This document shows positions 43,300 to 56,947 of a DNA stretch of 64,000 nucleotides, piece by piece. The position numbers were made by a program, and so were the translations under genes. Below the pieces are notes generated by a model. That model did not search any database and was not told the origin of the DNA. It worked only from the letters and a program-made list of their open reading frames with translations. Origin of the DNA: Escherichia coli (GTDB lineage: Bacteria > Pseudomonadota > Gammaproteobacteria > Enterobacterales > Enterobacteriaceae); NCBI RefSeq assembly GCF_003018235.1, contig NZ_CP027437.1, one strand, 5' to 3'. The first letter of the stretch is position 1. Every line of letters starts with the position of its first letter.

Positions 43300-45401
<2,102 letters not shown>

Positions 45402-45566
45402 TTAGTTAATTCTCTGTGTCGTGCGCGTCCCAGCTTGAAAAAACGTAATAATAGTGAAAGGTTTACTCATAAATGAGCGGCATTTTGCGTAAACCTGCGC
45501 CAGTTGGCAACTTATTACAGCCATTGGCGGCACGCGTTGCTAATTCGCGATGGTGATTTTATTTCC

Positions 45567-45582
45567 ACGCAAACGGTTTCGT
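45567..45582 (+). promoter_or_regulatory. PurR operator-like box ACGCAAACGGTTTCGT upstream of purL
   Basis: Close match to the PurR consensus ACGCAAACGTTTGCGT, about 75 nt upstream of the purL start. Confidence 0.6.
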
Positions 45583-45658
45583 CAGCGCATCAGATTCTTT
45601 ATAATGACGCCCGTTTCCCCCCCTTGGGTACACCGAAAGCTTAGAAGACGAGAGACTT

Positions 45659-48600
45659 ATGATGGAAATTCTGCGTGGTTCGCCTGCATTGTCGGCATTC
45701 CGAATCAACAAACTGCTGGCACGTTTTCAGGCTGCCAGGCTCCCGGTTCACACTATTTACGCCGAGTATGTCCATTTTGCTGACCTCAATGCGCCGTTAA
45801 ACGATGATGAGCACGCACAACTTGAACGCCTGCTGAAATATGGCCCGGCACTCGCCAGCCACGCCCCGCAAGGCAAACTCCTGCTGGTGACCCCGCGTCC
45901 TGGCACCATCTCTCCCTGGTCTTCGAAAGCGACCGATATTGCCCATAACTGCGGGCTGCAACAGGTAAACCGTCTTGAGCGCGGCGTGGCTTACTATATA
46001 GAAGCCGGTACGCTGACCAATGAACAATGGCAGCAGGTTACCGCTGAACTGCACGACCGCATGATGGAAACGGTCTTTTTTGCTTTAGATGATGCAGAGC
46101 AGCTGTTTGCACACCATCAACCGACTCCGGTCACCAGCGTTGATTTGCTGGGGCTGGGCCGTCAGGCGCTAATCGACGCTAACCTGCGTCTTGGCCTGGC
46201 ACTGGCGGAAGATGAAATTGACTATTTGCAGGATGCTTTCACAAAGCTTGGTCGTAACCCGAACGACATCGAACTGTATATGTTTGCCCAGGCGAACTCC
46301 GAGCACTGCCGCCACAAAATTTTTAACGCCGACTGGGTTATCGATGGTGAACAGCAGCCGAAATCGCTGTTTAAGATGATCAAAAACACCTTCGAAACTA
46401 CGCCGGATCACGTTCTCTCTGCTTATAAAGATAACGCCGCCGTCATGGAAGGGTCTGAAGTGGGCCGCTACTTTGCTGACCACGAAACGGGCCGCTACGA
46501 TTTCCATCAGGAACCGGCGCATATTCTGATGAAAGTTGAAACCCACAACCACCCGACGGCGATTTCTCCGTGGCCGGGCGCGGCGACCGGTTCCGGCGGT
46601 GAAATCCGCGATGAAGGTGCCACCGGGCGCGGCGCGAAGCCGAAAGCTGGTTTGGTTGGTTTCTCCGTTTCCAACCTGCGAATTCCTGGCTTCGAACAGC
46701 CGTGGGAAGAAGATTTCGGTAAGCCTGAGCGCATTGTCACCGCGCTGGACATCATGACCGAAGGCCCGCTGGGTGGCGCGGCATTTAACAACGAATTTGG
46801 TCGTCCGGCACTGAACGGCTACTTCCGTACTTATGAAGAAAAAGTGAACAGCCACAATGGCGAAGAGCTGCGCGGTTATCACAAACCGATCATGCTGGCG
46901 GGCGGGATCGGCAACATTCGTGCCGATCACGTACAAAAAGGCGAGATCAACGTTGGTGCGAAGCTGGTCGTTCTCGGCGGCCCGGCAATGAACATCGGTC
47001 TTGGCGGCGGCGCGGCGTCTTCCATGGCGTCTGGTCAGTCTGATGCCGACCTCGACTTCGCTTCCGTACAGCGCGACAACCCGGAGATGGAGCGTCGCTG
47101 CCAGGAAGTGATCGACCGTTGCTGGCAGCTTGGTGATGCCAACCCAATCCTGTTTATCCACGACGTTGGCGCAGGCGGTCTTTCTAACGCCATGCCGGAA
47201 CTGGTGAGCGACGGCGGGCGCGGCGGTAAATTCGAACTGCGCGATATCCTGAGCGACGAACCGGGCATGAGCCCGCTGGAAATCTGGTGTAACGAATCCC
47301 AGGAACGCTACGTGCTGGCGGTTGCTGCCGATCAGTTACCGCTGTTTGACGAACTGTGTAAGCGTGAGCGCGCGCCATACGCGGTGATTGGTGAAGCGAC
47401 CGAAGAACTGCATCTTTCTTTGCACGATCGTCATTTTGATAATCAGCCGATCGATCTGCCGCTGGACGTACTGCTTGGTAAAACGCCGAAGATGACCCGC
47501 GAAGTACAAACGCTGAAAGCGAAGGGTGATGCGCTGGTTCGTGAAGGGATTACCATTGCTGACGCGGTGAAACGCGTGCTGCACCTGCCGACCGTGGCGG
47601 AGAAAACTTTCCTGGTGACCATTGGTGACCGCAGCGTAACCGGCATGGTAGCGCGCGATCAGATGGTGGGTCCGTGGCAGGTGCCGGTCGCTAACTGCGC
47701 GGTCACTACCGCCAGCCTTGACAGCTACTATGGTGAAGCGATGGCGATTGGCGAGCGTGCGCCGGTTGCGCTGCTGGATTTCGCCGCCTCTGCCCGTCTG
47801 GCGGTCGGTGAAGCGTTAACCAATATTGCCGCAACACAGATTGGCGATATCAAACGCATTAAACTTTCCGCCAACTGGATGGCGGCGGCAGGCCACCCTG
47901 GTGAAGATGCGGGCCTGTATGAAGCCGTTAAAGCTGTGGGCGAAGAACTTTGTCCGGTGCTGGGCCTGACGATCCCGGTGGGTAAAGACTCTATGTCGAT
48001 GAAAACCCGCTGGCAGGAAGGTAACGAAGAGCGCGAAATGACGTCGCCGCTGTCGCTGGTGATTTCTGCATTTGCCCGTGTGGAAGATGTGCGTCACACC
48101 ATCACGCCGCAGCTTTCTACCGAAGATAACGCATTACTGCTGATTGATCTGGGCAAAGGCAATAACGCGCTGGGCGCAACGGCGCTGGCGCAGGTTTATC
48201 GTCAGCTTGGCGACAAACCGGCAGATGTACGCGACGTTGCCCAACTGAAAGGCTTCTATGACGCGATTCAGGCGCTGGTTGCACAGCGTAAGCTGCTCGC
48301 GTACCACGACCGCTCGGATGGCGGCCTGCTGGTAACGCTGGCGGAAATGGCCTTTGCTGGTCATTGCGGCATTGACGCGGATATCGCCACTCTGGGTGAC
48401 GATCGCCTGGCGGCGTTGTTTAACGAAGAACTGGGTGCGGTGATTCAGGTTCGTGCCGCTGACCGTGAAGCAGTTGAAGCGGTACTGGCACAGCATGGGC
48501 TTGCGGATTGCGTCCATTATGTAGGGCAGGCGGTTTCCGGTGACCGTTTTGTGATTACCGCCAACGGGCAGACTGTATTCAGCGAAAGCCGCACTACGTT

Positions 48601-49546
48601 GCGTGTCTGGTGGGCAGAAACTACCTGGCAGATGCAGCGCCTGCGTGACAACCCGGAGTGTGCCGATCAGGAGCATCAGGCGAAATCAAACGACGCCGAT
48701 CCGGGCCTGAATGTAAAACTGTCGTTCGATATCAACGAAGATGTGGCAGCACCGTATATTGCCACTGGCGCACGTCCGAAAGTTGCTGTGCTGCGTGAGC
48801 AGGGCGTGAACTCGCATGTTGAAATGGCGGCAGCTTTCCACCGTGCAGGCTTCGATGCTATCGACGTGCATATGAGCGACCTGCTGGCTGGACGCACGGG
48901 CCTGGAGGATTTCCACGCCCTGGTAGCGTGCGGTGGTTTCTCCTACGGTGATGTGCTGGGTGCCGGTGAAGGTTGGGCGAAGTCTATCCTGTTCAATGAC
49001 CGTGTACGCGATGAGTTTGCAACCTTCTTCCACCGTCCGCAAACGCTGGCGCTGGGGGTATGTAACGGTTGCCAGATGATGTCTAATCTGCGCGAACTGA
49101 TCCCAGGTAGTGAGTTGTGGCCACGTTTTGTGCGCAATACCTCCGATCGCTTTGAAGCGCGTTTCAGCCTGGTTGAAGTAACCCAAAGCCCGTCTCTGCT
49201 GTTGCAGGGGATGGGGGGCTCGCAAATGCCGATTGCTGTCTCTCATGGTGAAGGGCGCGTGGAAGTGCGTGATGCGGCGCATCTGGCGGCACTGGAAAGC
49301 AAAGGGCTGGTGGCACTGCGCTATGTCGATAACTTCGGTAAAGTCACTGAAACCTACCCGGCTAACCCGAACGGTTCACCGAACGGTATTACGGCGGTTA
49401 CGACTGAAAGTGGTCGAGTCACCATTATGATGCCGCACCCGGAACGTGTTTTCCGTACTGTCAGCAACTCCTGGCATCCGGAAAACTGGGGCGAGGATGG
49501 GCCGTGGATGCGTATTTTCCGCAATGCACGTAAGCAATTGGGATAA
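45659..49546 (+). CDS. purL: Phosphoribosylformylglycinamidine synthase (FGAM synthase, large single-chain type)
   Basis: 1295 aa. Confidence 0.97.
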
Positions 49547-52408: not shown

Positions 52409-53732
52409 ACCTGCGCATTTATTATTGGTCGATGACGATCCGGGATTGCTGAAACTGCTTGGCCTGCGCCTGACCAGCGAAGGCTACAGCGTGGTCACGG
52501 CGGAAAGTGGTGCTGAAGGATTACGGGTACTGAATCGCGAAAAAGTAGATTTAGTTATCAGCGACCTGCGGATGGATGAAATGGATGGTATGCAGCTGTT
52601 TGCTGAAATCCAGAAAGTGCAGCCGGGAATGCCGGTAATTATTCTTACCGCACATGGTTCTATTCCCGATGCCGTTGCTGCAACACAGCAGGGAGTGTTC
52701 AGTTTCCTCACCAAGCCTGTCGATAAAGATGCGCTATATCAGGCAATTGACGATGCGCTGGAACAATCCGCGCCAGCCACCGATGAACGCTGGCGCGAGG
52801 CGATTGTCACCCGCAGCCCGCTGATGCTGCGTTTGCTGGAACAGGCGCGGCTGGTGGCGCAATCAGACGTTAGCGTTTTGATTAACGGCCAGAGCGGCAC
52901 CGGGAAAGAGATTTTCGCCCAGGCTATCCACAACGCCAGCCCGCGCAACAGCAAGCCATTTATTGCTATTAACTGTGGCGCATTACCCGAGCAATTGCTG
53001 GAGTCGGAGCTATTTGGTCATGCGCGTGGCGCGTTTACTGGCGCTGTCAGCAATCGCGAAGGTTTATTCCAGGCGGCGGAAGGCGGTACGCTATTTCTCG
53101 ATGAGATTGGCGATATGCCCGCACCGTTGCAGGTCAAACTGCTGCGCGTGTTGCAGGAGCGTAAAGTGCGCCCGCTGGGCAGTAACCGCGATATTGATAT
53201 CGACGTGCGGATTATTTCCGCCACTCACCGCGACCTGCCAAAAGCGATGGCGCGCGGGGAATTCCGCGAAGATCTCTATTACCGCCTCAACGTTGTCAGC
53301 CTGAAAATTCCGGCACTGGCGGAGCGCACAGAAGACATTCCGCTACTGGCAAATCACCTGTTGCGCCAGGCGGCAAAGCGACATAAACCGTTTGTCCGCG
53401 CGTTCTCTACCGATGCGATGAAACGCCTGATGACCGCGAGCTGGCCGGGTAATGTGCGCCAGTTGGTCAACGTGATTGAACAGTGCGTGGCGCTGACCTC
53501 ATCTCCGGTGATTAGTGATGCGCTGGTGGAGCAGGCGCTGGAGGGTGAAAATACGGCGCTGCCAACCTTTGTTGAGGCACGTAATCAGTTTGAACTCAAC
53601 TATTTGCGTAAGCTGCTGCAAATCACCAAAGGCAACGTCACCCACGCGGCGAGAACGGCGGGGCGCAACCGGACAGAATTTTATAAACTGCTTTCCCGAC
53701 ACGAGCTGGATGCAAACGATTTCAAGGAATGA
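52398..53732 (+). CDS. glrR: Sigma54-dependent response regulator GlrR (QseF)
   Basis: 444 aa from [14 protein letters not shown]; receiver, AAA+ (GESGTGKE-like, GAFTGA) and HTH domains. Confidence 0.95.
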
Positions 53733-53756: not shown

Positions 53757-54131
<375 letters not shown>

Positions 54132-55415: not shown

Positions 55416-55693
55416 ATAAAAAATAGCCCTGCAATGTAAATGGTTCTTTGGTGTTTTTCAGAAAGAATGTGATGAAGTGAAAAATTTGCATCACAAACCT
55501 GAAAAGAAATCCGTTTCCGGTTGCAAGCTCTTTATTCTCCAAAGCCTTGCGCAGCCTGAAGGTAATCGTTTGCGTAAATTCCTTTGTCAAGACCTGTTAT
55601 CGCACAATGATTCGGTTATACTGTTCGCCGTTGTCCAACAGGACCGCCTATAAAGGCCAAAAATTTTATTGTTAGCTGAGTCAGGAGATGCGG

Positions 55694-56947
55694 ATGTTAA
55701 AGCGTGAAATGAACATTGCCGATTATGATGCCGAACTGTGGCAGGCTATGGAGCAGGAAAAAGTACGTCAGGAAGAGCACATCGAACTGATCGCCTCCGA
55801 AAACTACACCAGCCCGCGCGTAATGCAGGCGCAGGGTTCTCAGCTGACCAACAAATATGCTGAAGGTTATCCGGGCAAACGCTACTACGGCGGTTGCGAG
55901 TATGTTGATATCGTTGAACAACTGGCGATCGATCGTGCGAAAGAACTGTTCGGTGCTGACTACGCTAACGTCCAGCCGCACTCCGGCTCCCAGGCTAACT
56001 TTGCGGTGTACACCGCGCTGCTGGAACCAGGTGATACCGTTCTGGGTATGAACCTGGCGCATGGCGGTCACCTGACTCACGGTTCTCCGGTTAACTTCTC
56101 CGGTAAACTGTACAACATCGTTCCTTACGGTATCGATGCTAGCGGTCATATCGACTACGCCGATCTGGAAAAACAAGCCAAAGAACACAAACCGAAAATG
56201 ATTATCGGTGGCTTCTCTGCATATTCCGGCGTGGTGGACTGGGCGAAAATGCGTGAAATCGCTGACAGCATCGGTGCTTACCTGTTCGTTGATATGGCGC
56301 ACGTTGCGGGCCTGGTTGCTGCTGGCGTCTACCCGAACCCGGTTCCTCATGCTCACGTTGTTACTACCACCACTCACAAAACCCTGGCGGGTCCGCGCGG
56401 TGGCCTGATCCTGGCGAAAGGTGGTAGCGAAGAGCTGTACAAAAAACTGAACTCTGCCGTTTTCCCTGGTGGTCAGGGCGGTCCGTTGATGCACGTAATC
56501 GCCGGTAAAGCGGTTGCTCTGAAAGAAGCGATGGAGCCTGAGTTCAAAACTTACCAGCAGCAGGTCGCTAAAAACGCTAAAGCGATGGTAGAAGTGTTCC
56601 TGGAACGCGGCTACAAAGTGGTTTCCGGCGGCACTGATAACCACCTGTTCCTGGTTGATCTGGTTGATAAAAAACTGACCGGTAAAGAAGCGGACGCCGC
56701 TCTGGGCCGTGCTAACATCACCGTCAACAAAAACAGCGTACCGAACGATCCGAAGAGCCCGTTTGTGACCTCCGGTATTCGCGTGGGTACTCCGGCGATT
56801 ACCCGTCGTGGCTTTAAAGAAGCCGAAGCGAAAGAACTGGCTGGCTGGATGTGTGACGTGCTGGACAGCATCAATGATGAAGCGGTTATTGAGCGCATCA
56901 AAGGTAAAGTTCTCGACATCTGTGCACGTTACCCGGTTTACGCATAA
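55694..56947 (+). CDS. glyA: Serine hydroxymethyltransferase
   Basis: 417 aa from [12 protein letters not shown]. Confidence 0.97.

What the first reader, a model, noticed from the sequence alone, without database searches (positions are those of the whole stretch)
45567..45582. PurR box upstream of purL
ACGCAAACGGTTTCGT is close to the 16-bp PurR operator consensus and lies in the purL promoter region.
Basis: partly seen in the sequence, partly recalled or inferred. Interest (0 to 1): 0.2.

Follow-up and report, generated by a model that had tools for sequence, protein, structure and literature searches.

The report
Known PurR operator at purL promoter
This 16-base sequence is the already documented binding site through which the purine repressor PurR switches off the E. 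coli purine-synthesis gene purL when purines are plentiful, so it is real but ordinary.

Summary
The observation and the interpretation both hold. ACGCAAACGGTTTCGT is at window 45567-45582, in the 257-bp gap between the divergent genes mltF and purL of an Escherichia coli chromosome. It differs from the palindromic PurR consensus at 2 of 16 positions and keeps the central CG. A weight matrix built from 26 other published PurR sites ranks it first in the window (22.1 of a possible 25.2 bits). Its reverse complement is letter for letter the purL motif in the PurR ChIP-chip table of Cho et al. 2011 (PMC3159470), where binding was detected only with adenine added. The box is near-invariant in 5403 of 5426 complete E. 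coli genomes. It is present in 67 of 68 Enterobacterales species sampled without reference to the box. In 66 of those 67 it ends exactly 17 bp before a conserved TATAAT, across a variable spacer, so it covers the -35 position. The most likely mechanism is that PurR with its corepressor blocks RNA polymerase at -35. This is a textbook site, already known and of low interest.

The parts
45567..45582 (.). PurR operator (PUR box) of purL. It is a 16-bp imperfect palindrome, ACGCAAAC|GGTTTCGT, with the central CG at 45574-45575.
   Evidence: Sequence read. Weight-matrix score 22.1 bits, the top of the window. Identical to the published ChIP-chip motif for purL. Mean column identity 0.98 across 68 Enterobacterales sequences.
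45577..45582 (+). Inferred -35 position of the purL promoter (TTTCGT, a poor match to TTGACA). It lies entirely inside the right half of the PurR box.
   Evidence: Inferred from the fixed 17-bp spacing to the conserved TATAAT. The consensus promoter scan did not call a + strand promoter because this -35 hexamer is weak.
45600..45605 (+). Inferred -10 hexamer (TATAAT) of the purL promoter.
   Evidence: Sequence read. Mean column identity 0.99 in 68 Enterobacterales sequences, while the 17-bp spacer 45583-45599 is 0.54. TATAAT is present in 64 of 67 species. The transcription start was not measured here. It is inferred at about 45611-45613.
45659..49546 (+). purL, the regulated gene (phosphoribosylformylglycinamidine synthase, 1295 aa).
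   Evidence: ORF. RefSeq annotation of 100% identical DNA.
55560..55575 (.). Second PurR box of the window (AGGTAATCGTTTGCGT), in the hmpA-glyA intergenic region, 119-134 bp upstream of the glyA ATG at 55694. It serves as an internal positive control.
   Evidence: Weight-matrix score 21.5 bits, second in the window. Identical to the glyA motif of Cho et al. Table 1. Context.

Best explanation
The 16-mer is the operator through which the LacI-family purine repressor PurR controls purL in E. coli. When purines are abundant, hypoxanthine or guanine binds the PurR dimer as corepressor. The dimer then binds this imperfect palindrome. The right half of the box occupies the -35 position of the purL promoter, exactly 17 bp upstream of the TATAAT -10 hexamer. 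Bound PurR should therefore prevent RNA polymerase from engaging the promoter and so repress initiation of purL transcription. When purines are scarce, PurR without corepressor leaves the site and purL is transcribed. Shown here: the sequence, its weight-matrix score, its identity to the published in vivo binding motif, its conservation, and its geometry relative to -10. Taken from the literature: PurR occupancy in vivo, the role of the corepressor, and the purR dependence of purL expression. Inferred: the exact transcription start and the steric-occlusion step.
For: The sequence is present and is the best PurR weight-matrix hit in the window (22.1 bits). The independent known site at glyA ranks second. 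Cho et al. 2011 (PMC3159470) report a PurR ChIP-chip peak at purL (log2 ratio 1.88), seen only with added adenine, with the motif ACGAAACCGTTTGCGT, which is the exact reverse complement of this box. The same paper states that PurR sites generally lie between the -35 and -10 elements and act on initiation, and that PurR represses the IMP-pathway genes, including purL. A footprint from 120 purL loci collected by a pattern on the PurL N-terminus, and so not selected for the box, gives the following. The box is present in 67 of 68 Enterobacterales with enough upstream DNA, and 52 copies are identical. Mean column identity is 0.98 for the box, 0.54 for the adjacent spacer and 0.42 for the upstream flank. 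The spacing from box to TATAAT is exactly 17 bp in 66 of 67. Thirty-two of 34 Vibrionaceae carry ACGCAAACGGTTGC[GT]T-type boxes. Seventeen Verrucomicrobia and Fibrobacter purL loci score at most 7.2 bits. This matches the reported restriction of PurR orthologues to Enterobacterales, Pasteurellales and Vibrionales (PMC4052901). In Yersinia pestis, deleting purR raises purL mRNA (log2 1.90 and 2.83; PMC10673613), and a Yersinia species in the sample (Y. artesiana, locus L021) carries the identical box. No Rfam family matches the intergenic region.
Against: Nothing found here contradicts this explanation. Three limits apply. The original footprinting and operator papers (He et al. 1990; Meng et al. 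1990) are not in the held library, so in vitro binding is cited only second-hand. The hexamer at the -35 position (TTTCGT) matches TTGACA at only 2 of 6 positions, and the consensus promoter scan did not call this promoter.
Confidence: 0.96

Rival explanations
1. The 16-mer is a chance match to the PurR consensus and has no regulatory role.
For: Weight-matrix hits of this strength can arise by chance in 64 kb: 2 of 200 simulated windows reached 22.1 bits. The looser 3-mismatch consensus search is not significant on its own: 13 of 100 shuffles gave at least 2 matches.
Against: The hit lies in the 257-bp promoter region of a purine-synthesis gene. It is identical to the motif inside a published PurR ChIP-chip peak. 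It is about 98% conserved across 68 Enterobacterales sequences while its flanks are 42-54% conserved. It is absent upstream of purL in phyla outside the reported range of PurR.
Confidence: 0.01
2. The conserved block is primarily a core promoter element of purL (a -35 or UP-like element), or a site for another LacI-family regulator with a similar AAACG/CGTTT core, such as RbsR, GalR/GalS or CytR. On this reading PurR is not the protein that matters there.
For: The right half of the box coincides with the -35 position. LacI-family motifs share the central CG and flanking A/T tracts. PurR retained the ancestral RbsR-like motif according to PMC4052901, and all-atom modelling separates GalR/GalS sites poorly from PurR sites (PMC2577325). 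The two non-consensus positions of the box are invariant, which suggests an additional constraint.
Against: All 16 bp are conserved, including the left half, which lies upstream of -35. That is more than a -35 hexamer would need. The hexamer itself is a poor -35 (2 of 6). The outer CGC/GCG-type positions match the PurR matrix. PurR occupancy at exactly this motif is adenine-dependent in vivo, and purL is derepressed in purR mutants. A double role as both operator and -35 is compatible with the main explanation rather than a rival to it.
Confidence: 0.02
3. The box regulates the divergent gene mltF rather than, or as well as, purL.
For: The intergenic region is shared. A sigma-70-like match on the - strand (CTGACG, 18 bp, TAAAAT; 45585..45556) overlaps the box.
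Against: The -10 of that - strand match lies in poorly conserved columns. The conserved - strand promoter-like elements are further away: TTGCCA at 45510..45505 and CAAAAT at 45487..45482. That puts the box roughly 90-100 bp upstream of the likely mltF start, which is a poor position for a simple repressor. Cho et al. assign the peak to purL only.
Confidence: 0.01

Closest known systems
E. coli K-12 purL PurR operator (pur regulon PUR box; He et al. 1990 and Meng et al. 1990 as cited in PMC10912719; ChIP-chip in Cho et al. 2011, PMC3159470)
   Same: It is the same site: identical 16 bp (reverse complement ACGAAACCGTTTGCGT), the same mltF-purL intergenic location, and the same regulated gene.
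   Different: Nothing differs. The window may come from a strain other than K-12, but the 30-mer around the box is exact in 5403 of 5426 complete E. coli genomes.
Other pur-regulon operators (purF, purT, purMN, purHD, purC, purEK, glyA)
   Same: All are 16-bp palindromes of the ACGNAAACGTTTGCNT type with a central CG. They mostly lie in the region of the -35 and -10 promoter elements.
   Different: The purL box has G at position 10 and T at position 13 where the consensus has T and G. These two deviations are invariant in Enterobacterales. The purB and purR operators instead lie inside coding sequence and block elongation.
purL PurR box of Vibrionaceae
   Same: It is a homologous operator upstream of the orthologous gene, with the same left half ACGCAAACGG.
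   Different: The right half is closer to the consensus (TTGCTT or TTGCGT). The box ends 29 bp rather than 17 bp before TATAAT, a shift of 12 bp, so it lies just upstream of a TTACRT -35-like hexamer instead of on top of -35.

Membership tests
PurR (LacI-family purine repressor) operator, the PUR box | A 16-bp imperfect palindrome matching ACGCAAACGTTTGCGT or ACGNAAACGTTTGCNT, with a central CpG step | tested here: met
   The site matches the consensus at 14 of 16 positions, with the central CG at 45574-45575. It scores 22.1 of a possible 25.2 bits against a matrix of 26 independent sites, within the upper half of leave-one-out scores of known sites.
PurR (LacI-family purine repressor) operator, the PUR box | Lies in the promoter or early transcribed region of a gene of purine or related nucleotide metabolism | tested here: met
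   The box starts 92 bp upstream of the purL ATG at 45659 and ends 17 bp before a conserved TATAAT.
PurR (LacI-family purine repressor) operator, the PUR box | Bound by PurR, in a corepressor-dependent manner (hypoxanthine or guanine) | not testable with these tools
   Literature only. A ChIP-chip peak at purL was seen only with exogenous adenine, and its motif is identical to this 16-mer (PMC3159470). The identity of the sequences was checked here.
PurR (LacI-family purine repressor) operator, the PUR box | Expression of the downstream gene is repressed in a purR-dependent way | not testable with these tools
   Literature only. purL is listed among the IMP-pathway genes repressed by PurR with hypoxanthine (PMC3159470). 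purL is derepressed in Y. pestis lacking purR (PMC10673613). Meng et al. 1990 is cited for purL.
PurR (LacI-family purine repressor) operator, the PUR box | The site is conserved at the orthologous promoter in lineages that have PurR and is absent in lineages that lack it | tested here: met
   The box is present in 67 of 68 Enterobacterales and 32 of 34 Vibrionaceae. Seventeen Verrucomicrobia and Fibrobacter loci score at most 7.2 bits. The taxonomic range of PurR is taken from PMC4052901.
PurR (LacI-family purine repressor) operator, the PUR box | The same genome encodes PurR | not tested
   purR lies outside this 64-kb window. That E. coli carries purR is established knowledge and is implied by the purR deletion used in PMC3159470.

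The most novel reading that the evidence does not exclude
The two non-consensus bases of the purL box (G at position 10, T at position 13) are invariant across Enterobacterales. The whole box is also locked at exactly 17 bp from the -10 hexamer, whereas in Vibrionaceae it sits 12 bp further upstream. This could mean that in Enterobacterales the right half-site has a second function. It might act as an unusual -35 or RNA polymerase contact, or it might be an affinity-tuned operator that sets a purL-specific repression threshold. In that case operator and promoter would be co-constrained rather than merely overlapping.
Probability: 0.15. Interest if true: 0.25.

Novelty: already known. Interest (0 to 1): 0.05.

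Why it matters
The result matters mainly as a calibration point. A reader working from sequence alone correctly recognised a documented operator, and the weight-matrix scan recovers the known PurR sites of the window (purL and glyA, plus the weak glnB-upstream candidate). Biologically, this site is one of the switches that couples de novo purine synthesis to purine availability in enteric bacteria. Nothing new about that system follows from this finding.

Tried and rejected
I tried to read the primary operator papers (He et al. 1990, PMC213288; He et al. 1993, PMC204761) and Mironov et al. 1999 (PMC148515). None is held in the library.

No supplementary tables of Cho et al. are held, so I could not read the fold-change for purL.

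A literature search for a mapped purL transcription start failed on term syntax and I did not repeat it, so the start site remains inferred.

An Rfam scan of 45350-45750 at E-value up to 1 found nothing. A known RNA element is therefore not an alternative reading.

The terminator-like hairpin at 45535-45552 and the - strand promoter-like match at 45585..45556 fall in unconserved columns, and I treated them as chance matches.

The half-site-like TTTGCGT at 45484-45490 is not a second PurR box, because the best matrix score there is below 0. It coincides with the -10 of the conserved mltF promoter-like element.

PhyloScan (PMC1794230) does not mention purL, glyA or glnB.

Full report
**Observation.** It lies in a 257-bp intergenic region. 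On one side is an ORF on the - strand (43845-45401, 518 aa). On the other is a 1295-aa ORF on the + strand (45659-49546).

A 501-bp query across this region matches 5425 of 5426 complete E. coli genomes at 95-100% identity. It is always chromosomal, and the flanking genes are annotated mltF and purL. The window is therefore E. coli chromosome, and the site is upstream of purL as claimed.

**Is it more than chance?** The site differs from the perfect palindrome ACGCAAACGTTTGCGT at two positions and keeps the central CG. Within three mismatches, that consensus matches only this site and one at 55560-55575. That loose test is weak by itself: 13 of 100 shuffles gave at least two matches.

I therefore built a log-odds matrix from the 26 PurR motifs in Table 1 of Cho et al. 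2011 (PMC3159470). I left out purL and glyA because both lie in this window. Scanning both strands of the window gave these results:
- The purL box ranks first, at 22.1 bits of a possible 25.2.
- The glyA-upstream box at 55560-55575 ranks second, at 21.5 bits.
- The next distinct site scores 12.2 bits.
- Only 2 of 200 first-order Markov simulated windows reached 22.1 bits anywhere (mean of maxima 15.6, sd 2.0).

Inside the mltF-purL intergenic region the next best score is 1.8 bits.

**Identity with the documented site.** Cho et al. 2011 mapped PurR by ChIP-chip in E. coli K-12 MG1655. Their Table 1 lists a binding region assigned to purL (log2 ratio 1.88 with adenine, not detected without). 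Its motif, at 2,693,642-2,693,657, is ACGAAACCGTTTGCGT. That is the exact reverse complement of the window sequence.

Their glyA motif, AGGTAATCGTTTGCGT, is likewise identical to window 55560-55575. That site lies in the hmpA-glyA intergenic region, 119-134 bp upstream of the glyA ATG.

The paper describes purL as one of the previously characterised PurR-bound promoters. It lists purL among the IMP-pathway genes repressed by the PurR-hypoxanthine complex. A 2024 review summarises the same system: a dimeric LacI-family repressor, hypoxanthine and guanine as corepressors, and palindromic PUR boxes upstream of the pur genes (PMC10912719).

**Conservation.** Within E. coli, a 57-mer spanning the box and the -10 region is at least 99% identical in 5394 of 5425 genomes. 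A 30-mer of the box plus 7 bp on each side is found as an exact match of 28 nt or more in 5403 of 5426 genomes.

For a cross-species footprint I collected purL loci without reference to the box. I scanned one genome per species for a degenerate DNA pattern encoding the PurL N-terminus (M[10 protein letters not shown]). The results by group were:
- **Enterobacterales.** Of 68 sequences with 200 bp of upstream DNA (67 species loci plus the E. coli window), 67 carry the box. Fifty-two copies are identical, 12 have G instead of A at position 1, and 3 have other single changes.
- **Vibrionaceae.** Thirty-two of 34 loci carry ACGCAAACGGTTGC[GT]T-type boxes. The two without a box have under 200 bp of upstream DNA held.
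- **Verrucomicrobia and Fibrobacter.** The 17 loci that happened to match the pattern score at most 7.2 bits.

This distribution agrees with the reported restriction of PurR orthologues to Enterobacterales, Pasteurellales and Vibrionales (PMC4052901).

In the Enterobacterales alignment, mean identity to the E. coli base varies sharply by segment:

| Segment | Mean column identity |
|---|---|
| PurR box (45567-45582) | 0.98 |
| 17-bp spacer after the box (45583-45599) | 0.54 |
| 55 bp upstream of the box (45512-45566) | 0.42 |
| TATAAT hexamer (45600-45605) | 0.99 |

This is a classic footprint of a protein-binding site next to a core promoter element.

**Mechanism.** In 66 of 67 Enterobacterales the box ends exactly 17 bp before TATAAT, or a one-mismatch variant of it. 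With the canonical 17-bp spacer, the -35 hexamer position is 45577-45582 (TTTCGT), which lies wholly inside the right half of the box.

That hexamer matches TTGACA at only 2 of 6 positions, which is why the consensus promoter scan did not call this promoter. The promoter therefore appears to rely on a perfect -10.

A PurR dimer bound across 45567-45582 would occupy the DNA that sigma-70 region 4 must contact. The best-supported mechanism is thus corepressor-dependent occlusion of RNA polymerase, repressing initiation. Cho et al. state the same general rule for pur promoters.

The steps rest on different kinds of evidence:
- **Shown here:** sequence, matrix score, identity to the ChIP motif, conservation, and geometry relative to -10.
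- **From the literature:** in vivo occupancy that depends on adenine, and purR-dependent expression. The latter includes derepression of purL in Y. pestis lacking purR (log2 1.90 and 2.83; PMC10673613); a Yersinia species in my sample (Y. artesiana, L021) has the identical box.
- **Inferred:** the transcription start (about 45611-45613) and the steric step.

**Rivals.**
- A chance match is excluded by the conservation and the ChIP identity.
- A known RNA element is excluded by an empty Rfam scan.
- A pure promoter element would not explain conservation of the left half-site.
- Another LacI-family protein is not supported, given adenine-dependent PurR occupancy at exactly this motif.
- Regulation of mltF is unlikely. 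The conserved - strand promoter-like elements (TTGCCA at 45510..45505, 17 bp, CAAAAT at 45487..45482) put the box roughly 90-100 bp upstream of the likely mltF start.

**Comparison and novelty.** This is not merely like the known purL PurR operator. It is that operator. Novelty is 'already known' and interest is low.

There are minor curiosities. The two deviations from the consensus (G10, T13) are invariant in Enterobacterales. Vibrionaceae keep the box 12 bp further upstream of -10. The third-best matrix hit of the window lies just upstream of glnB, which Cho et al. name as a previously characterised PurR target that their ChIP missed.

Noticed in passing
window 53710-53725: ATGCAAACGATTTCAA (+ strand) is the third-best PurR matrix hit of the window (12.2 bits). 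It lies at the very 3' end of glrR (stop codon at 53730-53732), 68-83 bp upstream of the glnB ATG at 53793. Cho et al. name glnB as a previously characterised PurR-bound promoter that their ChIP-chip missed, so this is probably that weak operator. The score alone is within the chance range.
   Followed up: partly
window 55560-55575: The PurR box AGGTAATCGTTTGCGT lies in the hmpA-glyA intergenic region, 119-134 bp upstream of the glyA ATG. It scores 21.5 bits and is identical to the published glyA ChIP-chip motif.
   Followed up: yes
window 45482-45510, - strand: A sigma-70-like promoter points towards mltF: TTGCCA at 45510..45505, a 17-bp spacer, then CAAAAT at 45487..45482. Besides the PurR box, the purL -10 and the purL Shine-Dalgarno region, these are the only strongly conserved islands in the Enterobacterales alignment of the intergenic region.
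   Followed up: partly
loci L002-L121 (Vibrionaceae subset, e.g. L003, L025, L102): Vibrionaceae keep a purL PurR box (ACGCAAACGGTTGCTT or ACGCAAACGGTTGCGT). It ends 29 bp before TATAAT in 30 of 32 loci, against 17 bp in Enterobacterales. It therefore sits just upstream of a TTACRT -35-like hexamer rather than on the -35 position, a shift of 12 bp, roughly one helical turn.
   Followed up: partly
window 45576 and 45579 (box positions 10 and 13): The two positions at which the purL box departs from the PurR consensus are 100% and 97% conserved across 68 Enterobacterales sequences. G10 is also kept in most Vibrionaceae boxes (28 of 32). This suggests selection for this exact, sub-consensus operator rather than drift.
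   Followed up: no
L103 (Zophobihabitans entericus) and L064 (Arsenophonus endosymbiont of Aleurodicus floccissimus): These are exceptions to the conservation. L103 has no PurR-like box within 350 bp upstream of purL (best score -1.5 bits). L064 has the central CG mutated (ACGCAAACAGTTTCGT, 15.4 bits). This may reflect loss or decay of PurR control in these host-associated lineages. Whether purR is present in them was not checked.
   Followed up: no
window 45606-45616: The segment right after the purL -10 (GACGCCCGTTT) is G+C-rich and partly conserved in Enterobacteriaceae. A G+C-rich discriminator is typical of promoters under negative stringent (ppGpp/DksA) control. I did not pursue this.
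   Followed up: no
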